41,495 bases of DNA from positions 1-41,495 of the IMG/VR virus record IMGVR_UViG_3300022179_000816, one strand, 5' to 3'. The notes below the pieces were generated by a model. The model had not been told where the DNA came from, searched no databases, and saw only the letters and a list, made by a program, of their open reading frames with translations. The DNA is from a virus (lineage: Duplodnaviria; Caudoviricetes). The position numbers were made by a program, and so were the translations under genes. The number at the start of each line of letters is the position of its first letter. Position 1 is the stretch's first letter. This document shows, one piece after another, positions 9,502 to 26,923 of this stretch.

Positions 9502-11108
9502 AGCAGTTTCAGTTTGCTATACCTGATATTTCAGACCCGGTAATCGACCGGTCGACCGGGTATATGAACGACCAGTGGTATAGGTTCTTTGAAGTATTTG
9601 ATTTTCAGGCGCACGATAGCGCCGAAAGCGTTGAGACGCTTAACACTGAAAAAGCTGATAAGTCTATCGTGCTTACTGCCGGGGTCGACCTGGATGGTGG
9701 CGGCGATCTTTCGGCTCCTAGGACTTTTGACCATGCGGATACTGCAGTAACGCCTGGGACGTATGGTGACGCAACAAATGTGGGCGCGTTCACTGTCAAT
9801 CAACGCGGCCATATTACGGCTGCCTCTAACGTCCCCATCGCTCTCCCCTTTACTGATCTAACTGACGTCCCGGCGTCTTACACGGGTCACGGCGGGAAGG
9901 TCGTAAAGGTCCGGGTCGATGAGGCGGGCCTGGAATTCGTGGCCGGAGGCGCGGGTGTCACCGACTTCACCGATCTGGGCGATGTTCCTTCGAGTTATGT
10001 GGGCGAAAGTCTGAAATTAGTCCGGGTGAACGCTGGCGAGACCGGCCTAGAATTCGTGGTAGGAGGCGGCGGGGCCACCGACTTTACTGACCTAGGCGAT
10101 GTCCCCTCAAGTTATATCGGGGAAGCCCTTAAGCACGTCCGTGTAAACGCTGGCGAGACTGCTCTCGAATTCGTCGATGATGAAGGTATTACCGAACTCA
10201 CGGGCGATGTAACGGCTGGTCCTGGGCCTGGGTCTAAGGTGGCTACGATAGCGAATGACGCTGTCACTACCGTCAAGATCATCGATGATGCTGTAACTTA
10301 TGCTAAGATACAGAACGTTTCGGCCTCCGATCGGGTCTTGGGTCGCAAGACTGCGGGCGCTGGGAATATAGAAGAACTCACGGCTTCTGAGCTGCTTGAT
10401 TTCCTGGGCACAACCCATGGAGCCATCCTGTATAGGGATTCTGCTGGTTGGGCTATTTTAGGCCCTGGAACCGACGGATACGCCCTTACGACCCATGGAG
10501 CGGCGGCAGACCCTACTTGGGAGCCGGGTGGCGGCGGGGCCGCTGACTTTACTGACCTGGGCGATGTCCCCGCCAGCTATACTGGTGAGGGCTTAAAGGT
10601 CGTCCGTGTAAACGCTGGTGAGACTGGCCTGGAGTTCTTCACGCTTAGCGCGGGAGCGGTTGACTTCACCGATCTAGGCGATGTTCCCGCCAGCTATACG
10701 GGGGAAGGATATAAAGGGGTTCGGGTTAACGCGGGCGAGAGCGCTCTCGAATTCCACGAAATGAGCTACGATATCGGCATGGCTATCGGGGGTGTTCCTC
10801 GGCCTAGTCAGATCGTGGCCTATGCTCCCTGTGTCTCAGATTTTACTCTCCCCGCTAGCTTGACCGGCAGCCAAGCATATTGCTTGGTCACCCCGAGTTC
10901 TGGCACGGTGGTGTTTGATATCGAGAAGGATACGTCGCTGATCGGCACTCTCACCTTCACGTCTGGAACGGAAGAGGGTACCTTCAGCTTTACTACCGCC
11001 ACGGGCTTCATCAATACTACCCCGGTTCAGAATTTGAACCTGCGTTCGCCGTCCGACCTTAAGGGAATGTCGGACATCACTGTGGTCTTTAAAGCCCGGC
11101 TAGATTGA
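9498..11108 (+). CDS. tail fibre protein with internal repeats
   Basis: N-terminal 'WYRFF' anchor, 'TPGTYG..TVNQRGHITAA' fibre motif, five FTDLxDVP..LEF repeats, beta-sandwich C-terminus. Confidence 0.8.
   Translation: MKQFQFAIPDISDPVIDRSTGYMNDQWYRFFEVFDFQAHDSAESVETLNTEKADKSIVLTAGVDLDGGGDLSAPRTFDHADTAVTPGTYGDATNVGAFTVNQRGHITAASNVPIALPFTDLTDVPASYTGHGGKVVKVRVDEAGLEFVAGGAGVTDFTDLGDVPSSYVGESLKLVRVNAGETGLEFVVGGGGATDFTDLGDVPSSYIGEALKHVRVNAGETALEFVDDEGITELTGDVTAGPGPGSKVATIANDAVTTVKIIDDAVTYAKIQNVSASDRVLGRKTAGAGNIEELTASELLDFLGTTHGAILYRDSAGWAILGPGTDGYALTTHGAAADPTWEPGGGGAADFTDLGDVPASYTGEGLKVVRVNAGETGLEFFTLSAGAVDFTDLGDVPASYTGEGYKGVRVNAGESALEFHEMSYDIGMAIGGVPRPSQIVAYAPCVSDFTLPASLTGSQAYCLVTPSSGTVVFDIEKDTSLIGTLTFTSGTEEGTFSFTTATGFINTTPVQNLNLRSPSDLKGMSDITVVFKARLD
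9849..10754 (+). repeat. five ~30 aa repeats FTDLGDVPxSYxGExLKxVRVNAGETxLEF (3+2 arrangement)
   Basis: Directly visible in translation and DNA. Confidence 0.9.
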
Positions 11109-12376
11109 TGGCTAAGACCTTATTTGTGGGCGGAGCCCTGCTCACTGGAATGAGCTTCAGCGCTGCATCCACCACGTCCTTCTTCGAGTGCAACGGGGGC
11201 CTGCGGCAGCGTACGTCGAACGAGGCCCGTGCCCAGCTTACTATCCGCGAACCGGGGGTCTTTCGGAAGCTGCGAGTAAACGTGGCGACCAATGCTCGCA
11301 CGACGAATACGGTCATCACTTTTCGGATAAATGGCGCGGATGCGGATCAGACTGTCACATTCGGGTCTGGCGTAACTGGCTGGCAACTAGACACTACTCA
11401 CGAAGATCGTGTCGCGGCTGGCGATGTAGTGAATATGAAGCTCGTGACCGGGACCGGTTCTGGGGCTTTGGAGGTCCGCTCCGTCATCATGGAGTACGAG
11501 GCGGACAACGGCCGCATCTCCTACTTCTGCCTGAGCTTCAACGACGCTGCCGCTTGGCGCTTCGACATCGGCGCAGAGAAGGCCCCCCTGACGGGTTTCG
11601 GTTCTCCTACCCTCGCGTCCACGTCGAACGTCTCCCGTTATACTGACAACCGCACAGACTTTCGTGCGCCTTGCACTCTGTCACACGCGACGCTCAACGT
11701 CATCACCATGACGATGAACATTAACCCGGTGGTGACACTATACAAGAACGACGTCGCAACTTCGGTCACCTTCACGGTTACTGGACCCGGGTTCTACGAG
11801 GACACAGCGAACTCCTTTGACGTCGCGTCGGGAGACTATGTCTACTGGGTGATCGACACGACAGGGCGAACGTCGGGAGACATGACGACGGCCATGGCCA
11901 GCGTTCGGGCCGAGTGGCACACTACAGAATTCGACGTCATCGGCTTCATCATGATCGGCGCGAACCCATCAAACGGTAACAACGGCTGGGCCGCAGGTAC
12001 TCGATACGCTCACCCCGGCGGACGATTGTTCGCGACAGCTACCGAAGCGCCTGCGGAAATGAAGCTTCCGTTCCCGACGACGATCACCAATCTTCGGGCC
12101 GCCGCCGTCAACAATGACGCCGCTGCAGCAACCTTCCCGGCAGTCTTACGGGTTAACGGCGCAGCCGGTAATGGGGCATTGACGATCCCGAACGGGGTCG
12201 CCGCCACGGCGATAACCGTCGACACGACGAATTCCGACGACATCGCAGCCGAGGACGTAATCGACATAGAGACGGTCACTCAGAACGGCACGTCTGGTCT
12301 CTATCAGGTAGGCCTCACCTTTAACGGGATACTGGACCCTCGTAAAGATTTCCGTATCTGGTTCAGTAGGGGATAG
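11105..12376 (+). CDS. putative receptor-binding or fibre-associated protein with three tandem beta-sandwich domains
   Basis: Repeated pattern 'NG/ND...T.T...G...DT...D.VA.GD.V' three times; follows the fibre gene. Confidence 0.6.
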   Translation: MMAKTLFVGGALLTGMSFSAASTTSFFECNGGLRQRTSNEARAQLTIREPGVFRKLRVNVATNARTTNTVITFRINGADADQTVTFGSGVTGWQLDTTHEDRVAAGDVVNMKLVTGTGSGALEVRSVIMEYEADNGRISYFCLSFNDAAAWRFDIGAEKAPLTGFGSPTLASTSNVSRYTDNRTDFRAPCTLSHATLNVITMTMNINPVVTLYKNDVATSVTFTVTGPGFYEDTANSFDVASGDYVYWVIDTTGRTSGDMTTAMASVRAEWHTTEFDVIGFIMIGANPSNGNNGWAAGTRYAHPGGRLFATATEAPAEMKLPFPTTITNLRAAAVNNDAAAATFPAVLRVNGAAGNGALTIPNGVAATAITVDTTNSDDIAAEDVIDIETVTQNGTSGLYQVGLTFNGILDPRKDFRIWFSRG

Positions 12377-13739: not shown

Positions 13740-15533
13740 ATGGGCGGGTCCATCAATTTTGGGGCGATAGACCCGCTGTCCCCCGTAAAGGGGGCCGCCG
13801 CTGCCAACGCGCTGCTTCGCGGTATCGCGCAAGTTCGCGCTGGCCGGGCCTTGTCGGCGGGCGATCAGACCGGGGCCGTGAAGACCCTCCAGAATGCTGG
13901 GGACCTGAGTGGCGCACATGAAGTCAAGCAGCGTATGTGGGATGAAGACGATCGCGTGACCAAGATGGACGCGACGAAGCGTAAGGAAAGCGCCGAGTTC
14001 ACCATCGAGGCCACTTCCGCTCTGTATTCTCATCTGCAGAAAGCCAAGCAGGAGAACCCGGAGGGGGCGATCCAGGACACCCTGACGGCGTTTGAGCAGT
14101 TGGCTCCCATCCTTAAGAGCCGGGGTGCTTCTGACGATGACATCGTGATGTTCCGGACCCAACTGTCCCAGGACCCGGAACGCTTCCTGACGATGCTTCA
14201 TGACGAAGCATCCAGCCACCTCAAGACCCACGTCCTGTCGCCGGGCCAGGAACTTACCCGCGCCGATGGGGAGGTTCTCCATTCGGTTGCCCCGAAGAAG
14301 GAGTTCAAAATCCTCCGGGCGGGTGATGGGTCCCAGAAGCTTATCGAAGTGGGCGGCCCTGAAGACATCGCCGGGGCGGACACTGTTATGGCCTCTGAAG
14401 AGGTTCAAACCCAGGCTCCCGGCCCCACCAACTCGGCTGCGGATTTCGACGTCTTGGGCGACCTGATCGAGGCGGGGGCTAAGATCACCAGCGGCATGCG
14501 GACCCCGGAAGATAATGTCCGTGTGGGAGGGGTCACGAACTCTCTACATATGCAGGACAAGGCCCGCGATCTGGTCCCCCCGGAAGGGATGACTATGGCG
14601 CAACTGGCCGAGCAGGTCAGGCAGCGGATGCCCCATGCCGATGTTATCGATGAAGGTGATCACGTCCACGTGGAGTTGGACGGGAAGCCTCGGGGTGGCA
14701 TGAATGTAATGGCTGGGGGCTCGGGTCAAGATACCGTAAGGCCTGCAACTGGAGCCAGGGTCGTAGCGGAAACCGCCGCCAAGCCGGTAGCCAATTGGGT
14801 GACCGTCACCGCAGGTCCCAACGATCCGAACTTCCGCCCCGGCACCACCTACCAGCGTAACCCGGTCACGGGCGAGGTGAAGGTGAAGCAGGCCCCGCCC
14901 ACTGCCGCTAAGACCGCAACTTCCGGCGGGGCCGTCAAAATCCCCGCGTCCCAGGAGGCCGAACTCGCCAAGCTGCGCAAGTCGGTGAACGAAGTCCAGG
15001 GCATGTCCGGTCTGGTCGATCAATTCGTCGCGTTGAACAAGAGCGTGAACACTGGTGGATCGATGGCCCTTCCGGGCGTTGGCGAAGTCCTGGGGGCCGT
15101 TAACCCGAACGTGGCCCGGATGCGCTCCATCGCCAGCCAAATCACGCCCGCGATGCGGAACGGTCTCCCTGGCGCGGCGTCCGATAAGGACGTGGCAATG
15201 TTCAAGAGCGCGACAGTGGGGATCGATAAGCCCTATGCTGCCAACGTCGCTACCGCCAAGGCGGCCAAAGCATTCGCTGCTCGCCAAGGAGATTACGTCT
15301 CCTTCCTTGAGGCCTACGCCAGGGAGAATGGGACCATCAACGGGTCCTCGGAACTCTGGAAAAATTACGTCGACGCCAACCCTCTGTTCTCCGAGGGCGG
15401 GGCCGATGGGATGCTGGCGATCCGGAAGATCGTCCCATGGCGTCAGGCCATCAAGATGGGTGGAGCCAAGCCCGCAGCTTCCGGAGAGCCTAAGGTTCGT
15501 AGGTATAACCGCGAAACGGGGACCTTTGAATAA
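13740..15533 (+). CDS. internal virion/ejection protein with an embedded M15-type (D-Ala-D-Ala carboxypeptidase-like) peptidase domain
   Basis: 'ITSGMRTPEDN..VGG..NSLH....ARD' and 'HVHVE' zinc-ligand motifs. Confidence 0.75.
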   Translation: MGGSINFGAIDPLSPVKGAAAANALLRGIAQVRAGRALSAGDQTGAVKTLQNAGDLSGAHEVKQRMWDEDDRVTKMDATKRKESAEFTIEATSALYSHLQKAKQENPEGAIQDTLTAFEQLAPILKSRGASDDDIVMFRTQLSQDPERFLTMLHDEASSHLKTHVLSPGQELTRADGEVLHSVAPKKEFKILRAGDGSQKLIEVGGPEDIAGADTVMASEEVQTQAPGPTNSAADFDVLGDLIEAGAKITSGMRTPEDNVRVGGVTNSLHMQDKARDLVPPEGMTMAQLAEQVRQRMPHADVIDEGDHVHVELDGKPRGGMNVMAGGSGQDTVRPATGARVVAETAAKPVANWVTVTAGPNDPNFRPGTTYQRNPVTGEVKVKQAPPTAAKTATSGGAVKIPASQEAELAKLRKSVNEVQGMSGLVDQFVALNKSVNTGGSMALPGVGEVLGAVNPNVARMRSIASQITPAMRNGLPGAASDKDVAMFKSATVGIDKPYAANVATAKAAKAFAARQGDYVSFLEAYARENGTINGSSELWKNYVDANPLFSEGGADGMLAIRKIVPWRQAIKMGGAKPAASGEPKVRRYNRETGTFE

Positions 15534-17388: not shown

Positions 17389-17739
17389 GTGAAGAAAAGG
17401 TTCAACATCTTGTCCCTTATCACCGGAGACGACGAAATGCCCGCTGCCCCTCGTGAACGCCGTACCTTTGAGGACCCTCAGGTTACGGCTATAAATGCCC
17501 ATGCGGCAGCGAATGAGCGGTTGGCCCTCGCCATCGAGAACTTCACCACCGAGATCAAGCCCGGCATCGAGGCGGTGTCCGGCCTGTTCAACGGTATGAA
17601 AGCCATCGGAGATTTCTTCGTCCGCCGCAGGGTCATGATCCTCGGTTCGATCCCGCTGGTTCTCAGCCTGATCGGAGGCATCAGCCCGAACGTGGCTAAG
17701 ATCATCAATAGTATCCTGGCCTATTGGGGCGTGATATGA
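17389..17739 (+). CDS. putative holin
   Basis: C-terminal hydrophobic segments; directly upstream of and overlapping the endolysin. Confidence 0.5.
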   Translation: MKKRFNILSLITGDDEMPAAPRERRTFEDPQVTAINAHAAANERLALAIENFTTEIKPGIEAVSGLFNGMKAIGDFFVRRRVMILGSIPLVLSLIGGISPNVAKIINSILAYWGVI

Positions 17740-18170
17740 CGTTCTACTTTTCGATGAAGTCTCGGCATGCGCTTCGAGGCGTCCATCCGAAGCTGGTCGC
17801 TGTCGTGGAACGGGCTTTAACCCTGAGCGACGTGGACTTTAGGGTCATCGAAGGTGTCCGCACTCCCACCCGCCAAAAGGAGCTATACGCCCAGGGCCGC
17901 ACTAAGCCAGGGAACATCGTCACATGGACCCTGAACAGCAACCACTTTGTAAACCCGGAGACGGGCTTTGGCCATGCGGTGGACCTGCTTCCCGCGCCCT
18001 ATGACTGGAAGAACCCGAAAGACTTCGATACTATGGCGCGAGCCATGTTCGAGGCGTCCGCCGAACTGAATACCCCGATCCGATGGGGCGCGGATTGGGA
18101 TAGGGACGGCAAGCCGCGCGAGCGCGGTGAAAGCGATAGCCCTCACTTTGAACTGTGGAACGTAACATGA
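17736..18170 (+). CDS. endolysin, M15 family L-Ala-D-Glu peptidase-like
   Basis: 'RTPTRQKELYAQGRT', 'SNH..GHAVD', 'WGADW', 'DSPHFE'. Confidence 0.88.
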   Translation: MTFYFSMKSRHALRGVHPKLVAVVERALTLSDVDFRVIEGVRTPTRQKELYAQGRTKPGNIVTWTLNSNHFVNPETGFGHAVDLLPAPYDWKNPKDFDTMARAMFEASAELNTPIRWGADWDRDGKPRERGESDSPHFELWNVT

Positions 18171-18909: not shown

Positions 18910-18990
18910 CGCTATATATGTAGCGGGCCGGGGCCGAGGGGCCTCCCGTACCCCTCCCCGTGGCGCGGCGGCCCTAGTGGGGCAGTACCC
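18844..18990. repeat. structured repeat element, copy 1 (at the convergence of the two transcription units)
   Basis: GGGCGGGC.CCGTGGCCCCT..CGCTATATATGTAGCGGGC..GGGGCC.AGGGGCC..CCGTA, similar to 27135-27206. Confidence 0.75.
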
Positions 18991-20719
18991 CTGTTGAGCG
19001 GGCATAGTTGAGAACCACAGAGCTAATATCCTCTTTAAGCCTCAGCGCCTCGATGATATCGTGATCGATGGGAGCACCCTCCATGTCGTAGAGAGTGACT
19101 AGGCCCTCTTGTCCCTTGCCTTGGGGGCGCTCTTCACACTGCGATCGGTCGTTGAGAGAGTAGTTGTTCTCATAAAATATGCCCGTGAGGCAAGGATCGC
19201 CAGGGGCTCCCATGAGGGTGTGTCCGTAACGAATAGCCTGCTCCTGGCCAATAACCACTCGGCACGAGCGGTCCCCGTTAAACTTGCGCTTCTCGGATTG
19301 AACGTCCACACCAAATCGTTTAGCTTGTCCCGCTCCAACGATAAAGGCTGGATTGAACTCCCCAAGAGCTTCGGCGAGCAGTTCGATGGAGTGAGTATAA
19401 TGGGCGAAGATGATGACTTTATCGGAGGCTTGGTCACGGAGGAAACCTTTCACAGCCTGTAGTTTCGGGTTCGAGGACGGCGGCATAATATCATGCGCCT
19501 TGCCTTGTTCGTCGATGATGAACCCCGAGGCGATCTGCTGCAACTTAAGCAGCTTGGTGATGATCTGGTCGGCGGATATCACCAGCGGGTCGAAGCCCTC
19601 GCGCTCCAACTCCGTAATAAAGTCCTTCTCCATTCGATTATAGTGAACCCGCTGTTCGCGGATCATTTCGAACTTAAGCTTAGCGTACTCGGAGCCGGGG
19701 GTGGTGAGCCAGTTCGTGCGCCGGGCCAGGAAGCCCCAGGCCACTAGTAGTTCGTTAAGTTCTTCGACCCGTTCGTCTCTGACGCCCAGGACCTTTTTCC
19801 CCTGGAACCCGCCCATCTTACAGAACCGGTTACGGAAGGCATAAGGGTTGACGCCGTCCAACGCTCCCAGCATCTTTAGCTGCATATATAGGTCCTGAGG
19901 ACCCTGGACCACAGGCTTTCCGGTAAGGTCGCGTCGCCAGCCGAATAGACGGGCCGTCTGTAAGCAGTTTTTGGCCAGGACGCCGCTGTCGTTCTTGACG
20001 CTTACGCTTTCGTCGAACGCGATAAGTTCTTGAGGCCCGGAAATATTTTCGATAAAAGAGAGCGTTTCTCGGCTGAGAGCGGCTTCGTAATTGATGGCGA
20101 TAAGACCGCCGTGTCGACGATTTCGATCGACCCATCTTTGCGCAAGATGGCGTTCATTACTGTTAAAAACGTAGGCGGGACAGTCAAGTCCAAAGCGATC
20201 AGCTTCATCAGCCCATTCCGGCTTGAATTGGTTCGGAGAGAAGATAACGCCGAATTTGCTTCCGTAATCCCGTCTAAGTAGTCCGAACTCATTAAGAAGA
20301 ACCGGTGTCTTCCCGAGTCGCTGCTCCATGAAGTGAGCCCATCCTCTAGCTGGGCCAGTTCTTCCAAGTCCGCCACCATCGACGAGACGATATCCTCTTT
20401 CGTTAACATCATCCTGTCCTTGCTTAAGCCAAAATCCACCCATGCTCCGCCGAAGCGCCTCGCTCTGGACGGCTCGGGGCTCACCCCTCAGCAGCCAGTC
20501 AGGGTCGCGCCCCCTTCCGCCGAGCGGGGCCATCTGGACCTGAGGCATTGGCCGCACTATCTGCGACATTTGCTGATCGACCGGAGCGCGCGTAGCCTTA
20601 GGCTTCTTATTACCCTCAGGGCCATCGCTCTTGTCGAAACCCTTTAGGGGCTGGTCCACGTCGCCAAACGCGCGCAGGTACTCGGGAAGTTCATCACCAG
20701 TGGGCATTCTGTATTCCAT
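18974..20719 (-). CDS. SNF2-like superfamily 2 helicase
   Basis: Motif I MEQRLGKT, motif II FDES, LTGKP, KLQQIASGF, KVIIF, QCEERP. Confidence 0.85.
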   Translation of the reverse strand: MEYRMPTGDELPEYLRAFGDVDQPLKGFDKSDGPEGNKKPKATRAPVDQQMSQIVRPMPQVQMAPLGGRGRDPDWLLRGEPRAVQSEALRRSMGGFWLKQGQDDVNERGYRLVDGGGLGRTGPARGWAHFMEQRLGKTPVLLNEFGLLRRDYGSKFGVIFSPNQFKPEWADEADRFGLDCPAYVFNSNERHLAQRWVDRNRRHGGLIAINYEAALSRETLSFIENISGPQELIAFDESVSVKNDSGVLAKNCLQTARLFGWRRDLTGKPVVQGPQDLYMQLKMLGALDGVNPYAFRNRFCKMGGFQGKKVLGVRDERVEELNELLVAWGFLARRTNWLTTPGSEYAKLKFEMIREQRVHYNRMEKDFITELEREGFDPLVISADQIITKLLKLQQIASGFIIDEQGKAHDIMPPSSNPKLQAVKGFLRDQASDKVIIFAHYTHSIELLAEALGEFNPAFIVGAGQAKRFGVDVQSEKRKFNGDRSCRVVIGQEQAIRYGHTLMGAPGDPCLTGIFYENNYSLNDRSQCEERPQGKGQEGLVTLYDMEGAPIDHDIIEALRLKEDISSVVLNYARSTGVLPH

Positions 20720-20903: not shown

Positions 20904-21103
20904 AACTTTCTCAGTAGGCTGTCAGGGTCGACCCTCTCGGGCTGAACGAGGGGGCCGGTGCGTCCCTTGCCAACGTAGACGCCCTGGGACCTTAACACGG
21001 CCCGCGCGTTGCGGCAAGTCTTGCATCCCATTCGGCCCTTCCCCACAGAAACTTGATTAGCGGGGGCGAATGAGTGGCCACACTTAAAATGGGATTTCTT
21101 CAT
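20900..21103 (-). CDS. small zinc-finger protein
   Basis: 'KSHFKCGH...N.....GRMGCKTCR' pattern; overlaps both neighbours. Confidence 0.55.
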   Translation of the reverse strand: MKKSHFKCGHSFAPANQVSVGKGRMGCKTCRNARAVLRSQGVYVGKGRTGPLVQPERVDPDSLLRKF

Positions 21104-21701
21104 CGGGCATCATTGCATATGCTTCAAGGTCGGTGTCGAGACGCGGGGCGAGTTCGATGGAACCGGACAGCCTAGTCACTTCCTCGTCGGCGGAGTTGAA
21201 CATGTCCAGGGCCACGGACGGCATAAAAAACACCCCTCCTAGGATGCGGAATGCTTTGTAGCACCTATCTCTGGCGATGTGCATTTCGTTGCGCATCAGG
21301 ACATTGCCTCGAGCCACCTCTAACGAAACCCAGAACCACGCCTCGAGCGTGTCGGCGGCCTTGATGACGGACTTGACGCGCGAACTTACGTTCCTGGCGG
21401 CCTCGGCCTCCCCGATGGTCTCAAGGAAGGAATTCTCAAACTCCGCCAGCTTCATAGGGTCTGTCGTGGCCCGTTTCGCAGGGCCTGGGCTATCGCCGGT
21501 CACGATCTCCGCTAGGTCGTGGCGCAGGGCGTATTCGAGAACGGACAGGGCCTCCCATTCGACTAAGTCCAGCTTGTCGCAGATAGTGGAAGCGTACAGC
21601 GTTACGAAGTACGAATGCTCGGCCACCGACTGCCGATGGAGACGCGGGGCGACGTTCCAGCGCTCCACGAACGCTAGCATCCTGATCCGTGCGTTAAACA
21701 T
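21084..21701 (-). CDS. datZ: HD-domain dATP triphosphohydrolase (DatZ, YfbR-like)
   Basis: 'VERW', 'QSVAEHS', 'HDLAEIVTGD', 'IKAADTLEA'; in the purZ cluster. Confidence 0.85.
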   Translation of the reverse strand: MFNARIRMLAFVERWNVAPRLHRQSVAEHSYFVTLYASTICDKLDLVEWEALSVLEYALRHDLAEIVTGDSPGPAKRATTDPMKLAEFENSFLETIGEAEAARNVSSRVKSVIKAADTLEAWFWVSLEVARGNVLMRNEMHIARDRCYKAFRILGGVFFMPSVALDMFNSADEEVTRLSGSIELAPRLDTDLEAYAMMPDEEIPF

Positions 21702-21996
21702 AGTAGCCCTCTTTCTTGGCCCAATTCCGGAGGATCGCCGCTAGGTCCTCCCTGTGATACTGACTTTTGTTAATGGTGAGCGCATTGCGGATCAAAGCGC
21801 CTTCGAATGGCTCGATCTCTAGCGAAAGAGCTTTTTGCGCCCCCGAGTCCATTTCTTGTTCGTGCCATATCACGAACTTAGGCGTCTTCAATGTCGGTGG
21901 CGTAACCCGCTTTTCGAGCTTTTTGATAGCTCTCTTCGATCTGGAAATCCTGGCGCTCTTTCGCAGTTTTTCGTAGATTGTCCGGAAGCGCATCAT
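21694..21996 (-). CDS. hypothetical basic protein within the Z cluster
   Basis: 100 aa; start and stop overlap the MazZ-like and datZ genes. Confidence 0.6.
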   Translation of the reverse strand: MMRFRTIYEKLRKSARISRSKRAIKKLEKRVTPPTLKTPKFVIWHEQEMDSGAQKALSLEIEPFEGALIRNALTINKSQYHREDLAAILRNWAKKEGYYV

Positions 21997-22388
21997 GGAG
22001 CCTCATTGCTTTCCTGCTGTTGTAGGCCAGTATCGTCGGGTCGACCGACGGGCGAAGGTCGGGTGGTGGCGGCGGCATTCTTCGCTTCAAGCGCGACAGC
22101 CGCGACGATAAGTGCCTGATTGGCGGCATCAGCAGCCTCCATCAATATCTCCATAGTGGAGCCGTTCGGGATCGCCCCCTCCAGTTCTAGGCTCTCGCGA
22201 CGCAGGCCCTCCATGGCTTTCGCTAAGTCCATTTCTTCCCAGCGACCCTTATGGGCGTTCCTGCGCAGCTTATAGATCATAGCGTCGAAGAACCGCTGCA
22301 GGTCCGGGGCCACACCTATCGCCACCAATTCGGGAGGAACCGGGACTTCTAGGGTGACCCATCCAGCGTCGCTAAGATTCTCGGGCAT
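21993..22388 (-). CDS. MazG-like all-alpha (d)NTP pyrophosphohydrolase (MazZ candidate)
   Basis: ExxE...ExxD metal motif 'RRESLELE...MEAADAAN'; immediately downstream of purZ. Confidence 0.65.
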   Translation of the reverse strand: MPENLSDAGWVTLEVPVPPELVAIGVAPDLQRFFDAMIYKLRRNAHKGRWEEMDLAKAMEGLRRESLELEGAIPNGSTMEILMEAADAANQALIVAAVALEAKNAAATTRPSPVGRPDDTGLQQQESNEAP

Positions 22389-23477
22389 TTAGTTTGCCTT
22401 TCGAATATCCTCGGAACGAGGGCCAGTGCCGAGCAGAATATCGGGCACCTTCCCCATCACCAGGATGCAGTCTTCGATGATGTTTTCGACCAGAGCGCTG
22501 AGCATGTTGGCCTGCAGGTAGTTGCAGAAGTTCAAGAACACTAGGTCGGGCATATTAGCCGCGATGCTCTCTCGAAATTGGACCCGGCTCCAAGTGAAGA
22601 CCCTACGCCGCCGCTTAGTGACCGTGGTCAGTTCGGGCTCCAGGCCGAGTTCTTCCCAGGATGTCTCGACCTGATCCTCATAGCAGCCGCCGCTGGAATT
22701 CTCGGTATCCCCGACCCGGATCGGGAAAGTCCGGTAGCAGGCCACCACCTTCTTAAGTTTTTGCGCCGGGATGCGCGCATCGGCCAGGGCCTGCATCACG
22801 GTGCATTCGCGGCTTGTGACGTTTGGGTAGAAACGGTGGGAGTTGACCCCAAGAGAGTACCCCTGGGCGGTTTCCACGAATACAACGTCTTCAGACCAAT
22901 CCCAATATCGGTCCCACGTAAGATCAGGTCGACGCCTTGCAGGGAACATAGGCTGATAAAAGCTGGACGCAATGGCGTTAAGTCCATGCTGCCTCATGAT
23001 CTTTGCGGCTTGGGCCGGTCCGACGCCCTTCCCGGTGCCCGCGATAAGGTGCACTGTCCCGCGATCATCGGACTTGTCTTTCTCTCCGATCAGCGCTGCA
23101 TTCGGGTGGATCGATAAGACCCTCTCGGACGTGAAGCCATAGGTGAGGCATTCGGCTGCTAAGATCGCAGGGTCGATCACCGCGCCCGCATTCAACAGTG
23201 TGTCGACGTCATATCCCATCTTACGAAGGAAAACGCTGGCGACAGGAATCTGCTGGGTCATGACCTTAAGGTCTTCGCGATTCTTCTGCCACATATACGC
23301 TGTGTGTCCGCTGTTCGGCCCGGCATTGGTGGTAACGTGGGTGATCTTACCCGCTCCGTATTCTGCCAGGAAGCCCGCGAGCAGCCCCTTGCCAGTGGAC
23401 CCGAACTGGCCGTCGACGAGAACATAGGCCCCCGGTTCGTCAAACCAGCCGCGAAGGTAGATGCTGCGGTCGATCAT
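22389..23477 (-). CDS. purZ: N6-succino-2-amino-dAMP synthetase PurZ (PurA paralog)
   Basis: DGQFGSTGKG (Ser where PurA has catalytic Asp), GPNSGHT, ETAQG, YPNVTSR, RTFPIRV, TTVTK, LNFCNY (ATP-type motif). Confidence 0.93.
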   Translation of the reverse strand: MIDRSIYLRGWFDEPGAYVLVDGQFGSTGKGLLAGFLAEYGAGKITHVTTNAGPNSGHTAYMWQKNREDLKVMTQQIPVASVFLRKMGYDVDTLLNAGAVIDPAILAAECLTYGFTSERVLSIHPNAALIGEKDKSDDRGTVHLIAGTGKGVGPAQAAKIMRQHGLNAIASSFYQPMFPARRRPDLTWDRYWDWSEDVVFVETAQGYSLGVNSHRFYPNVTSRECTVMQALADARIPAQKLKKVVACYRTFPIRVGDTENSSGGCYEDQVETSWEELGLEPELTTVTKRRRRVFTWSRVQFRESIAANMPDLVFLNFCNYLQANMLSALVENIIEDCILVMGKVPDILLGTGPRSEDIRKAN

Positions 23478-23848
23478 AGGTGTGTTCCTTTAGTCAGGAG
23501 GTTGGAGATCAGTGTAGCATACCCGGCTATGTCCGTCCAGCTATCTACGGTGTTCGGGTTTCCGACCATGATCCGGCTGATCTTCACGCAGATCATGTCG
23601 AGGCTCTCGCGCTGCTCGGGCACTAGGCGCTTCCACCTCTCGCCCTGATCGCGGAGCATCTTTTTCAGGGCCTGGGCGAACGCGGCCTGCTGCACATAGT
23701 TACCGTGCGTATGTTCCCGTTCTTCGATGACAACCTGGGCGCTCTGAGGCTGCCATTGCCTCCCCACCGGATACCGCAGGCATCCGCGCCCCTGAGAACT
23801 CTCACAGCCAGGGAGACAGTCTACTCCGTCAAAAGAGCAATGGGTCAT
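23474..23848 (-). CDS. DUF6378-like protein with Cys-rich N-terminus
   Basis: 'EER..THGNY', 'LDMICVKISRI..GNP...DSWTDIAGYATL'; ATGA overlap with purZ. Confidence 0.7.
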   Translation of the reverse strand: MTHCSFDGVDCLPGCESSQGRGCLRYPVGRQWQPQSAQVVIEEREHTHGNYVQQAAFAQALKKMLRDQGERWKRLVPEQRESLDMICVKISRIMVGNPNTVDSWTDIAGYATLISNLLTKGTHL

Positions 23849-24276
23849 AACTTCGGTACTCCGTGTGCTTCGAAGAGGCTAGCGATGTCGTAATATCCTC
23901 CGGTTTGTCGCTTCACGTAGATGTCGGAAGGATACATATAATTGAGCCGCTGAGCGGCCCTAGGCACGATCACCAGTCGATGTTCACCATGGTGGATCAG
24001 ATGCACTAGAATTCCGGTTACCGGCTTGCTGTAGGTACTCTGCATTCGCCTCAGCGTATCGGATTGCTTGTCCGTAACGTCCAGTTGGATATTAAACTTT
24101 TCCGTCACGGGACCTAGGTCCTTGACTTCCATGATCGAGGGAGCGAATGGGGGGAGCCACAGGCCAAGATCGGGGATGCCGATGGCGAATTTGTTGGACA
24201 GTTTCAGGCCGTAGCCCCCATCCTTGATCACCGAATCCTTGATCTGCTTCTGGACCTTAAGTTCTTCCTTAGCCAC
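23845..24276 (-). CDS. VRR-NUC / Holliday junction resolvase-like PD-(D/E)xK nuclease
   Basis: E near the N-terminus, 'GIPDL', 'MEVK', downstream Q. Confidence 0.75.
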   Translation of the reverse strand: MAKEELKVQKQIKDSVIKDGGYGLKLSNKFAIGIPDLGLWLPPFAPSIMEVKDLGPVTEKFNIQLDVTDKQSDTLRRMQSTYSKPVTGILVHLIHHGEHRLVIVPRAAQRLNYMYPSDIYVKRQTGGYYDIASLFEAHGVPKL

Positions 24277-25072: not shown

Positions 25073-26923
25073 CTACGCGGCCTCCCTGCCATACGTCGCT
25101 TCCGCCCAGTTGTCGCCGTGGTCGACGTCCATCCCGAGCGGGCACCTGAGATTGTACGGTTCGACCTGGAGGTTGGTGCAGATGCGGACCAGTTCGGCGG
25201 AGATTTCCTCCCCCTTCGCCCCTTTCGGCGCTTGCCACTCCAAGCTGTCGTAGATGCTCAGCAACAAGTGCGCTTGATCTTCCATGCTTTCCAGATACTC
25301 GTCGCATTCTAGCATCTTTGCTTTCATAATATCGGCGTTGCCGCCCTGGATGATGCGGCTCGTGCCCCGATATGCGAAACGCGGATGATCGAGGTGACAT
25401 CGTCTGCCTAGCAGGGTTTTAACATACCCCCGCTGCTGGAACGCTTTCTTGGCCCGGTTCTGGAAGTCTCGCACGCCTGGGAAGATGTCGAACCACTCGT
25501 TCCAGGCGTTGGTGGCTCTCTCCAAGTCCCAGCCCATGTGCCCTGCGAACGCGGCGGGCTGCATTCCGGTGAAGATGCCCATGTTCATCCGCTTAGCGGT
25601 AGGGTCTCGCTCCACCTCCATCCGGACGGCCAGGGAAGTATGGCAGTCTATAGGGGGGACGGCGTTGTATCCAGCTAAGAGCGTTGGGTCCTGGCTATAG
25701 TGGGCGAACAAGACGGGCTCGGCTTGCTTGTAGTCGGCCTCCCAGAACTCCATGCCCTCGTCCGCGATAAATAGCTTACGAAACCGCTTACCGATTTTCT
25801 TATTACGTTTCGGTACGGCGAGGAGGTTCGGGTGGTCGCACGATATCCGCCCGCCAACTGTACCATATTCGTCCCCCTTCAACTGGTTGATGTTCGTGTG
25901 GACCCGGCCATTCCAGATATGCTCGGACACCAATGGGGTGACGAACGTAGACATCAGGGTTCGAAGCTGTCGGACATCCACTATGTCCTGTCCGGGCTTG
26001 TTGGTCTTCAGCCACTTTTCTGCAAACGAGGGGTTACCGATAGGGGTGGTGGGCCAGTTCGTGATCCCGTGGGCCTCCATCAGCTTTCTGACGTCGATGG
26101 CCGACTTGACGTTGAACCCAGGCGGGAATTTGTTGAGAAGCTCGGCTATCTCGGCCTCTACGGCCTGTGATAACTCCCCGATATACTGGGGATCGGTCTT
26201 GATCCCCCGCCGTTCCATCCGGAACAGGGTCCAGATCAAACGGCTCTCGATCCGGTGGATCAGCCCCATTTCCTGGGCCTCGATCTCCTTCATCTGGGAG
26301 TTCCAGACTTCGAGGGTGGTGGTCCCGTCGCCCATGGCGTATTCCACGGCGAACGGATCGTTACCGGCGAGCCGCCAGTATTCGCTCATAATGGAAGCGG
26401 GCCGCTTGGGGTCGAGTGGGATGCCGAGAACTTGCGACATATGCTCGTAGAGTTCTTTACCCTTCTTGGCCGTGACCCGCTCCATGATGGCGGCGTTTTC
26501 GAGGGAGAATGACCTGCTGTATTCGTCCAGCATCGCCATGTTGATTTGGGTGTCTCCACATTCGCGCCCAAGCATGATCCCCGCATTCGCGGAGAAGTGC
26601 ATGTCGAATTTAAGGTGGTGACCGACCGTCAACAGGCCCTTGCTCGCCCTGATCTTGAACTCCTTGGCGAGTTCGCGCTCCCAGGGATGGATCGTTATCT
26701 TGTCAGTAGGTGAAGTGAGTGGGTGGACCCCAGGCCCTAGGAGGTTTCCGCCTCCACCATGGCGAATGGGGATATAGCAGTTGAAATCGGGGGTGGTGAT
26801 CACATATCCGACGGGGTTGTTGACCTTCCAATCCAGGCCGCTGCCCTCGGTGTCGTACGCTATGATCGGAGCTTCCCGAACGACCCGTAGCGCCTGTTCA
26901 GCTAGGTCACCAAGCGTCTGCAT
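25073..26923 (-). CDS. family A DNA polymerase with 3'-5' exonuclease (DpoZ candidate)
   Basis: ExoI YDTE, ExoII HHLKFD, ExoIII YAMGD; GRISC.HPNL; motif A ADYKQAE; motif B AKRMNMGIFTG; motif C IYDS; linked to purZ. Confidence 0.9.
   Translation of the reverse strand: MQTLGDLAEQALRVVREAPIIAYDTEGSGLDWKVNNPVGYVITTPDFNCYIPIRHGGGGNLLGPGVHPLTSPTDKITIHPWERELAKEFKIRASKGLLTVGHHLKFDMHFSANAGIMLGRECGDTQINMAMLDEYSRSFSLENAAIMERVTAKKGKELYEHMSQVLGIPLDPKRPASIMSEYWRLAGNDPFAVEYAMGDGTTTLEVWNSQMKEIEAQEMGLIHRIESRLIWTLFRMERRGIKTDPQYIGELSQAVEAEIAELLNKFPPGFNVKSAIDVRKLMEAHGITNWPTTPIGNPSFAEKWLKTNKPGQDIVDVRQLRTLMSTFVTPLVSEHIWNGRVHTNINQLKGDEYGTVGGRISCDHPNLLAVPKRNKKIGKRFRKLFIADEGMEFWEADYKQAEPVLFAHYSQDPTLLAGYNAVPPIDCHTSLAVRMEVERDPTAKRMNMGIFTGMQPAAFAGHMGWDLERATNAWNEWFDIFPGVRDFQNRAKKAFQQRGYVKTLLGRRCHLDHPRFAYRGTSRIIQGGNADIMKAKMLECDEYLESMEDQAHLLLSIYDSLEWQAPKGAKGEEISAELVRICTNLQVEPYNLRCPLGMDVDHGDNWAEATYGREAA

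What the first reader, a model, noticed from the sequence alone, without database searches (positions are those of the whole stretch)
25240..25600. Family A polymerase with strongly deviant nucleotide-selection motifs
Seen: motif B is K-R-M-N-M-G-I-F-T-G against canonical K-x-x-N-F-G-x-x-Y-G (Met at the Pol I F762 position, Thr at the near-invariant Y766). Motif C is IYDS against VHDE. From memory, phiVC8-type DpoZ also alters these sites, including Ser after the motif C Asp, but Thr766 and Tyr for His look more extreme. Inference: a distinct DpoZ variant with its own way of discriminating Z from A.
Basis: partly seen in the sequence, partly recalled or inferred. Interest (0 to 1): 0.7.

Follow-up and report, generated by a model that had tools for sequence, protein, structure and literature searches.

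The report
Z-phage polymerase with rebuilt active site
This phage's DNA polymerase sits beside the genes for 2-aminoadenine (Z) DNA and carries two separate, compensated active-site changes: a Met/Thr pair shared by a large purZ-linked lineage, which likely suits Z-DNA copying, and a His-to-Tyr swap that also occurs in a phage without the Z gene and so probably has nothing to do with Z.

Summary
Observation confirmed. ORF 25073-26923(-) is an intact family A polymerase with Met762, Thr766, Tyr881 and Ser883 (Pol I numbering), upstream of purZ-mazZ-datZ. The changes are not one feature. (1) Met762/Thr766 marks a large lineage: 120/120 and 119/120 nearest homologs, and the cultured Ochrobactrum phage OH (Met/Ser). 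All 109 assessable Thr766 clusters have purZ nearby. But 9 purZ-linked clusters keep Tyr766, one complete purZ-less phage has Asn766, and independent contrasts are too few to prove a link. The lineage lies outside phiVC8-like DpoZ (AU p 1e-44; HMM 283 vs cut-off 500) and is probably its sister (92/92, not firm). (2) Tyr881 occurs in only 12/120 homologs. It arose about 8 times, always with loss of Gln677 (22/22), once in a complete purZ-less phage: a compensated swap, not a Z determinant. (3) Ser883 is lineage-wide, also without purZ. Best reading: a DpoZ-like replicase whose O-helix floor was rebuilt; DatZ likely does much of the A exclusion. dZTP preference is untested. The scan noted this lineage before on other DNA (e1-3279566, e1-6327478, e1-3430089); the His881/Gln677 pairing was not among the notes returned.

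The parts
25073..26923 (-). Family A DNA polymerase, 616 aa, 3'-5' exonuclease plus polymerase (OH-like, purZ-linked lineage)
   Evidence: Pfam PF00476 and PF01612; NF038380 DpoZ 283 bits, below cut-off 500; model pLDDT 92.5, Klenow fold
25565..25594 (-). Motif B KRMNMGIFTG; Met448 = F762 (25580-25582), Thr452 = Y766 (25568-25570)
   Evidence: 120/120 and 119/120
25244..25255 (-). Motif C IYDS; Tyr558 = H881 (25250-25252), catalytic Asp559 = D882, Ser560 = E883
   Evidence: Tyr in 12/120
25820..25822 (-). Leu368 = Q677, co-varying partner of Tyr558
25358..25360 (-). Ser522 = N845 (motif 6); Gly in phiVC8-like DpoZ
25439..25462 (-). Gln488 (= M802) and Phe495 (= A809), which accompany Thr766
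   Evidence: with Thr766, Gln802 in 264 of 272 and F/M/L/I809 in 258 of 272
25718..25741 (-). Motif A EADYKQAE with catalytic Asp397 = D705 and steric-gate Glu402 = E710 intact
26327..26857 (-). Exonuclease motifs I-III (D24, E26, D107, Y195, D199), all present
   Evidence: each 120/120; map to D355, E357, D424, Y497, D501
22389..23477 (-). PurZ (DGQFGSTGKG, NFCNY)
   Evidence: phrog_1211; 39% to phiVC8 PurZ, 51% to OH; NF038379 227 bits, below cut-off 300; tree
21993..22388 (-). MazZ-like nucleotide pyrophosphohydrolase
   Evidence: 43% to OH p33 and 33% to phiVC8 p26 over aligned columns; no Pfam, PHROG or NCBIfam hit
21084..21701 (-). DatZ-like HD dATPase
   Evidence: phrog_7076 dATP triphosphohydrolase; YfbR-like
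18974..20719 (-). SNF2-type helicase closing the replication block
   Evidence: phrog_62; same slot in OH
23474..24276 (-). DUF6378 gene (23474-23848) and a 143-aa ORF of no family (23845-24276) between polA and purZ
   Evidence: homologs in the same order in L005 and L387
31328..33766 (-). Prim-Pol/helicase-type primase, a second possible DNA-synthesising enzyme
   Evidence: PF09250 and DUF5906; phrog_1156

Best explanation
This is an intact proofreading family A polymerase encoded beside purZ, mazZ and datZ, and it likely replicates a Z-for-A genome as a member of a lineage that is separate from, and probably sister to, phiVC8-like DpoZ. Inferred steps: PurZ plus MazZ supply dZTP and DatZ removes dATP, so the nucleotide pool does much of the A exclusion. 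The polymerase probably adds a moderate dZTP preference. Its O-helix module (Met762, Thr766, Ser845, with Gln802 and Phe809) removes the Tyr ring and the Asn on the minor-groove floor of the nascent pair and refills the space, so selection would lean more on the strength of three-hydrogen-bond pairs. The motif C Tyr881 is a separate change: it co-occurs with loss of Gln677 in about 8 lineages, probably as a swap of a hydrogen-bonded pair for hydrophobic packing behind the primer end, and is unlikely to bear on Z.
For: Shown: catalytic and exonuclease residues intact; confident Klenow-fold model. Z cluster with PurZ residues F12, S14, T262, F295, Y298 (residues from passages). Thr766: purZ nearby in 109 of 109 assessable 90% clusters; Met762 70 of 70; Gln762 36 of 36. 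Met/Gln762 never with an aromatic 766 (0 of 128; independent pairs 5.8 vs 0, median p 0.03). PolA and PurZ trees agree for the Met/Thr group. The one complete purZ-less phage nested in this group (L280) has Leu762, Asn766, Met802, Ala809, i.e. has lost most of the module (a single event). Tyr881 with non-Gln677 in 22 of 22 true cases, while 403 of 411 His881 keep Gln677; 8 changes on the tree, median p 0.031; mutual top partners, rank 29 of 40,193 pairs. GC-only 6-mer palindromes are avoided more than A-containing ones (O/E 0.36 vs 0.76), as in phiVC8, SH-Ab and OH. Both known DpoZ groups also lose Tyr766 (passages).
Against: No biochemical test. 9 clusters in the lineage keep Tyr766 beside or with purZ (8 plus L245), so the module is not needed. 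Non-Tyr766 vs purZ is not significant by independent pairs (4 pairs, median p 1). Gln802, bulky 809 and Ser845 do not pass independent pairs either (p 1, 1, 0.5). Complete purZ-less phages have Asn766 (L280) or Phe766 (L291, L309). The sister relation to phiVC8-like DpoZ is 92/92, unstarred, and the alternative is not rejected (p-AU 0.18); FastTree left it open. The BamHI site is also absent (0 vs 9.5 expected) although BamHI is blocked by dZ, and two purZ-less but incomplete relatives also avoid GC-only palindromes (L243, L260). S-2L replaces A fully without a Z-specific polymerase (passage).
Confidence: 0.55

Rival explanations
1. No intrinsic dZTP preference. DatZ and MazZ set the pool, as in S-2L. 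The O-helix changes are tolerated, compensated drift in a genome where every pair has three hydrogen bonds and proofreading is intact.
For: Tyr766 enzymes occur with purZ in 9 clusters, and closely related purZ-less enzymes form the sister group of the Met/Thr group at 100/99. Asn766 works in a complete purZ-less phage. No significant independent-contrast link. DpoZ is dispensable in S-2L (passage).
Against: Thr766 is fixed rather than variable (119/120; 126 of 149 in-lineage clusters, though sampling patterns favoured it) and comes with near-invariant Gln802 (264/272). No purZ-less Thr766 or Met/Gln762 was found. The nearest tested relatives in the tree are Z-preferring.
Confidence: 0.3
2. 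Direct read-out: Thr766, Ser845, Gln802 or Met/Gln762 hydrogen-bond to the 2-amino group that every Z:T and G:C pair shows in the minor groove, so A:T is rejected as a pair lacking it.
For: The changed residues are those that review passages place at the nascent pair and tie to fidelity (Y766, N845, F762). Small hydroxyl or amide side chains replace Tyr and Asn, and a new near-invariant Gln appears. Thr766 lies in two separate groups on the best trees.
Against: No ternary structure or coordinates could be examined. phiVC8 DpoZ is thought to sense pair stability, not the amine. A single origin of Thr766 is not rejected (p-AU 0.25 and 0.07). Gln762/Thr766 members keep Asn845.
Confidence: 0.12
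3. The gene is decaying or mis-sequenced, and the Prim-Pol replicates the genome.
For: A Prim-Pol gene is present. Three residues usually called invariant are changed.
Against: Full-length ORF; all metal ligands intact; the same residues in 11 to 119 other proteins; compensating changes. His881 mutation lowers Pol I kcat only about 10-fold (passage).
Confidence: 0.03

Closest known systems
Ochrobactrum phage vB_OspP_OH PolA (QIG66084, MT028492; Wolominvirus OH)
   Same: Best cultured match (36.8%, 2e-113). Same lineage. Met762, Ser766, Ser845, Gln802, Phe809, HDS. Same order polA, purZ, mazZ-like, datZ-like, helicase.
   Different: Keeps His881 and Gln677; Ser rather than Thr at 766. The passages read of its paper treat the cluster as nucleotide salvage and report no Z analysis or polymerase assay.
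phiVC8-like DpoZ (PolA cluster 18, DpoZ-2, NF038380, PDB 7PBK; phiVC8, SH-Ab 15497, PMBT28)
   Same: Family A exo+pol beside purZ/datZ/mazZ. Loses Tyr766 and Asn845. Ser883 as in phiVC8. Insertion 1 of the same length. Probable sister group (92/92).
   Different: 27-29% identity; 283 bits vs cut-off 500; Met/Thr/Ser vs Leu/Phe/Gly at 762/766/845; lacks insertions 2 and 3; nesting rejected.
Wayne-like DpoZ (cluster 19, DpoZ-1; Arthrobacter phage Maria1952 used as stand-in)
   Same: PurZ-family-linked PolA that has lost Tyr766.
   Different: Phe762/Phe766/Asn845; far away on a long branch; its cluster has a dUTPase-type gene rather than datZ/mazZ.
Klenow/Taq/Bst laboratory mutants Y766S/A, N845A, H881A and motif C 'LVL'
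   Same: Same positions. Y766S/A and N845A lower fidelity; H881A and hydrophobic motif C changes raise discrimination (review passages).
   Different: Single engineered changes in Pol I; here natural, fixed and with compensating neighbours.

Membership tests
Family A DNA polymerase | Catalytic D705, D882; E710, R668, R754, K758, Q849; Klenow fold | tested here: met
   All present, 120/120 each; PF00476 177 bits; TM 0.79 to Klenow
Family A DNA polymerase | Active 3'-5' exonuclease motifs | tested here: met
   D24, E26, D107, Y195, D199; activity itself not tested
phiVC8-like DpoZ | NCBIfam NF038380 score at or above 500 | tested here: not met
   283.4 bits, though it is the best family hit
phiVC8-like DpoZ | Leu455 / Phe459 / Gly548 signature (762/766/845) | tested here: not met
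   Met / Thr / Ser (signature)
phiVC8-like DpoZ | Ser583 after the motif C Asp | tested here: met
   S560; not diagnostic: absent in SH-Ab and PMBT28, present in purZ-less relatives
phiVC8-like DpoZ | Insertion 1 (palm) | tested here: met
   Span 14 vs 9 in Pol I; shared with non-Z ciri and HTVC023P and with M39
phiVC8-like DpoZ | Insertions 2 (helix O) and 3 (fingertip) | tested here: not met
   R754-K758 span 6 vs 12; G767-FPG span 31 vs 49-51
phiVC8-like DpoZ | Nested in the clade | tested here: not met
   Separate clades 99/99 and 100/99; forcing window+L069 in: p-AU 9.6e-45
DpoZ-2 in the wide sense (PolA of PurZ phages as one clade) | Monophyly with phiVC8-like enzymes | tested here: inconclusive
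   SH-aLRT 96, 92/92, open in FastTree; alternative p-AU 0.18; purZ-less members lie inside
DpoZ (functional definition) | Encoded with a Z-synthesis cluster | tested here: met
   purZ, mazZ-like, datZ-like downstream on the same strand
DpoZ (functional definition) | Prefers dZTP to dATP opposite T | not testable with these tools
   needs kinetics
Wayne-like DpoZ | Clade membership and Phe766 | tested here: not met
   (one stand-in sequence, long branch)
PurZ | S14, F12, T262 (dGMP) and F295, Y298 (ATP), phiVC8 numbering | tested here: met
   DGQFGSTGKG, ELTTVTK, NFCNY aligned; residues from passages
PurZ | NCBIfam NF038379 score at or above 300 | tested here: not met
   226.7 bits, best hit, far above the PurA models; groups with PurZ, not PurZ0, in the tree
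DatZ | W20 and I22 of S-2L DatZ | tested here: inconclusive
   Window reads W-N-V where phiVC8, SH-Ab and PMBT28 read W-Q-L/I (compared by eye; S-2L sequence not fetched)

The most novel reading that the evidence does not exclude
A third, independently specialised Z-polymerase lineage, larger than both known ones in metagenomes, that rejects A:T by directly reading the minor-groove 2-amino group with a Met/Gln762-Thr766-Gln802-Ser845 pocket. It holds natural on/off controls (purZ-linked Tyr766 members, purZ-less revertants) and a cultured member, which would make the open question of how DpoZ tells Z from A testable by swapping four or five residues.
Probability: 0.15. Interest if true: 0.8.

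Novelty: new variant of a known kind. Interest (0 to 1): 0.45.

Why it matters
How DpoZ prefers Z is unresolved: the phiVC8 structure paper found no single determinant, and Phe766 was the only change shared by both known groups. This lineage changes the same nascent-pair floor in a different way, lacks the phiVC8 loops, has a cultured member (OH) and contains close relatives with and without purZ, so it offers clean swap experiments and a possible new enzyme for Z-DNA synthesis. One virome polA survey kept only F/L/Y at 762 (passage), so such filters drop these Met/Gln762 phages. The His881/Gln677 pairing shows that the 'universally conserved HD dyad' tolerates Tyr when its partner changes, which is useful for polymerase engineering but is not about Z.

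Tried and rejected
Single-protein scan of viral contigs found no relative; alignment-based scans did. No IMG/VR or JGI locus of the window's own Tyr881/Leu677 subgroup was recovered, so for its 11 other members the neighbourhood is unknown; purZ linkage of Tyr881 rests on the window and L305 (with purZ) and L333 (without). Apparent Thr766 without purZ in L355 was a misalignment (true Phe762/Tyr766), and apparent Tyr881 with Gln677 in L287 likewise (true VHDE). L245 first looked purZ-less but has purZ elsewhere in its contig. Idea that GGQxGSE-type synthetases in this lineage are PurZ0: rejected, they nest within PurZ. Idea that the Thr module spread by swapping the fingers domain: not supported, the two Thr groups do not join in the fingers-only tree. 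The tree label REF_VC8_LDG is an hmmalign artefact; true residues Leu/Phe/Asn. 4-mer palindromes gave no useful signal. PHROG scan of 36 neighbours of four purZ-less loci named no base-modification gene, but most had no hit. Sequencing runs: none was listed. Cluster look-up gave no named organism. Two primary papers were not held. No complex prediction was run.

Full report
Observation. The window is a 41.5-kb, 59% GC phage record with a P22-like portal, capsid and tail genes on the + strand and a replication block on the - strand. ORF 25073-26923(-) encodes a 616-aa family A polymerase (PF00476, PF01612). Motif B reads KRMNMGIFTG (nt 25565-25594) and motif C IYDS (nt 25244-25255). Alignment with Salmonella Pol I gives M448=F762, T452=Y766, Y558=H881, S560=E883, and also S522=N845, L368=Q677, P403=L711, V404=R712. 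D705, E710, R668, R754, K758, Q849, D882 and the five exonuclease residues are intact. The AlphaFold2 model is confident (pLDDT 92.5, pTM 0.90) and matches Klenow (TM 0.79) and phiVC8 DpoZ (TM 0.76) about equally (VIA Z 33-36).

Context. Downstream on the same strand lie purZ (22389-23477), a mazZ-like gene (21993-22388), a datZ-like gene (21084-21701) and a helicase. PurZ has the residues that passages of bioRxiv 10.1101/2025.10.22.683976 list for dGMP and ATP binding and groups with PurZ, not PurZ0. Indirect support for a Z genome: the five most significantly depleted 6-mer palindromes are GC-only (CCGCGG 0 vs 22.5 expected, GGGCCC 0 vs 21.4, GCCGGC 0 vs 13.3, GGCGCC 2 vs 18.5, CCCGGG 6 vs 22.8), while GAATTC, GATATC, GTCGAC and ATCGAT are at expectation. 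Across 113 loci of 15 kb or more, the gap between A-containing and GC-only 6-mers is larger in the 81 with purZ nearby than in the 32 without (p 4e-5, not corrected for kinship; L245 dropped out of this set by a labelling condition or was scored apart). Against: GGATCC, AGATCT and CAGCTG are depleted too, and BamHI is listed as blocked by dZ (supplement passage of PMC12944874).

How common the residues are. Of 549 homologs at E<=1e-40, the best 120 were aligned: Met762 120/120, Thr766 119/120, Ser845 120/120, Ser/Ala883 120/120, Tyr881 12/120 (the closest 12). The closest cultured phage, Ochrobactrum vB_OspP_OH (36.8%), has Met762/Ser766/Ser845/HDS and the same gene cluster. A profile search reached a wider lineage in which 766 is Thr, Tyr, Asn, Leu, Met, Ser, Phe or Gly (best 150 of 49,664 hits examined).

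Link to purZ. 366 fetched loci with a polymerase gave 209 clusters at 90%, 149 of them at least 33% identical to the window. Thr766: 109 with purZ, 0 without, 17 too short. Tyr766: 8 with, 7 without, 1 short; one of the 7 (L245) has purZ elsewhere, and 3 of the other 6 are 99-100% complete and lack it (L269, L270, L278), the rest being incomplete (L243, L273, L260). Asn766: 3 with, 1 without (L280, complete). Ser766: 1 with. Two more clusters were short. Met762 70 with, 0 without; Gln762 36 with, 0 without. The scan patterns came from Thr-rich alignments, so proportions are biased, though purZ itself was not selected for. Because these are kin, the number of independent contrasts is small (4 starred pairs, p 1). 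Ser/Ala883 is in all 8 clusters that lacked purZ near polA, so it is a lineage trait; PMC8599892 (parts 2-4 of 6 read) also notes Ser there in T5.

Phylogeny. FastTree on 194 rows separates a 100-row OH-like lineage (99) from phiVC8-like DpoZ (99) and JL001-like/other PolA, with the Wayne-like stand-in on a long branch. On 47 chosen rows IQ-TREE with a mixture model gives OH-like 99/99, phiVC8-like 100/99, and joins them at 92/92. Placing the window inside phiVC8-like is rejected (p-AU 1e-44); uniting phiVC8-like with JL001-like instead is not (0.18) (LG+G4 quick tree). So it is not a member of cluster 18 (also HMM 283 vs 500; insertions 2 and 3 absent). Whether it shares one origin of Z use with that cluster is open. 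PMC12884076 (part 1 and passages) reports two DpoZ groups among NCBI viruses; OH is not named in its main text or the one small supplement held, but it may sit in its Fig. 6F. OH PolA is in the dataset of PMC10201439 (supplement row); I saw no cluster assignment. Thr766 falls in two groups split by Tyr766 lineages, but a single origin is not rejected (p-AU 0.25; 0.07 without the fingers).

O-helix module. Met or Gln at 762 never accompanies an aromatic 766 (0 of 128 rows) and tracks it across independent pairs (median p 0.03). With Thr766, position 809 is F/M/L/I in 258 of 272 sequences and 802 is Gln in 264; with Tyr766, 809 is Ala/Gly in 91 of 106; these two do not pass independent pairs. 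This looks like a rebuilt pocket, with the lost ring refilled, not decay. Review passages (PMC10520511) place Y766 stacked at the template and gate site and report lower fidelity for Y766S/A and N845A. That the 2-amino group of Z faces the minor groove near these residues is my own knowledge, not a call result. L280, nested beside OH and purZ-less, has Leu762/Asn766/Met802/Ala809: one case of the module fading when purZ is gone.

Motif C. Among 434 sequences alignable at both sites (of 494), 23 scored Tyr881; one (L287) was misaligned; all other 22 lack Gln677 (Leu 14, Gly 4, Phe 3, Ala 1), whereas 403 of 411 His881 keep it. Tyr881 needs 8 changes on a 260-row tree built without these columns, and loss of Gln677 goes the same way in 6.1 of 8 independent pairs and never the other way (median p 0.031). 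By APC-corrected mutual information the two columns are each other's top partner, rank 29 of 40,193. One origin is L333, a complete phage with Phe762/Tyr766 and no purZ. From memory, N845-Q849-R668-H881-Q677 form the hydrogen-bond track of Klenow described by Singh and Modak 2003; I saw only that paper's title, and the title of a 2005 paper on Q677 and mismatch removal, in a reference list. Passages of PMC11122685 give about a 10-fold kcat loss for His881 mutation, and PMC9347352 passages report higher accuracy for hydrophobic motif C changes. So Tyr881/Leu677 is best read as a compensated packing swap behind the primer end. It might shift the balance between extension and proofreading, which is where PMC8599892 places Z selection, but nothing here ties it to Z.

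Mechanism and odds. Most likely (0.55): Z-genome replicase with a moderate dZTP preference helped by the O-helix module, on top of pool control by DatZ/MazZ; motif C unrelated. Rival (0.30): no preference, pool control only. Rival (0.12): direct read-out of the 2-amino group. Decay or error (0.03). Shown: sequence, context, conservation, co-variation, tree position. Inferred: Z content, activities, contacts.

Novelty. Searches of the held library: DpoZ + 2-aminoadenine gave 9 papers, vB_OspP_OH 1 (passages read), PurZ + Ochrobactrum 0, Met762-type terms none with 'Met762' among the 15 listed of 57, Q677/H881 terms nothing on natural variants. The 2021 Science papers on DpoZ and PurZ were not read, and the bioRxiv supplement with phiDpoZ1/2 is closed; either could already include this lineage. 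Other papers: PMC9069017 passages, PMC5872031 and PMC3006429 reference lists only. Earlier notes of this scan describe the same lineage on other DNA; my tallies and trees were made before or apart from them and agree. What this window adds is the Tyr881/Leu677 subgroup and the evidence that this change is separate from Z. Verdict: real, new variant of a known kind, interest 0.45.

Noticed in passing
window 25595-25609 (-), aa 439-443 RDPTA: Helix O starts with Arg439 (=R754, 120/120) five residues before Lys444, one more than in Pol I or OH: a one-residue Asp-Pro bulge at the site of the 7-residue phiVC8 insertion 2. A gap-free alignment would wrongly put Asp at 754.
   Followed up: partly
P0121-P0123, P0145, P0151-P0153, P0173; L020, L132: Relatives of 860-990 aa are split at motif A, and two loci read HN-CEP there: probable inteins inserted before the Cys at position 709.
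   Followed up: no
L088, L091, L096, L160-L169, L176, L184, L189, L201, L266, L305: PurZ proteins with a PurZ0-like P-loop (GGQxGSE[GA]KG), some with TF[CV]D in place of NFCN, that nest inside PurZ beside datZ/mazZ; their ATP or GTP use is unknown.
   Followed up: partly
L280 (G007), polA at 9968-11779: Complete 46.5-kb phage nested in the Met/Thr group with no purZ, Leu762/Asn766, and no avoidance of GC-only palindromes; a natural Z-loss control.
   Followed up: partly
L384:3690-4841 (G002): 91-kb phage with Tyr766 polymerase and a PurZ far from polA, so neighbourhood-only tallies can miss purZ.
   Followed up: yes
L334: A divergent Phe762/Tyr766 PolA, outside all three DpoZ-type groups, with a PurZ-family gene 124 nt downstream that branches between PurZ0 and PurZ.
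   Followed up: no
L274-L277, L285; P0208-P0269 in part: Deep metagenomic branches of phiVC8-like DpoZ (Leu762/Phe766/Gly845, HDE) with purZ, lacking or varying the helix O insertion.
   Followed up: no
L387 (JAHFKN010000011.1): An 11.8-kb contig in a MAG titled Candidatus Gottesmanbacteria carries the same polA-purZ-datZ-helicase block (58%); probably a binned phage fragment, not host evidence.
   Followed up: partly
window 13740-15533 (+): Probable injected virion protein with an internal peptidase M15 domain; a second lysis-type ORF at 17724-18170 had no NCBIfam hit.
   Followed up: no
L250, L240: purZ-linked members with Asn766 followed by Trp in place of the usual Gly767.
   Followed up: no
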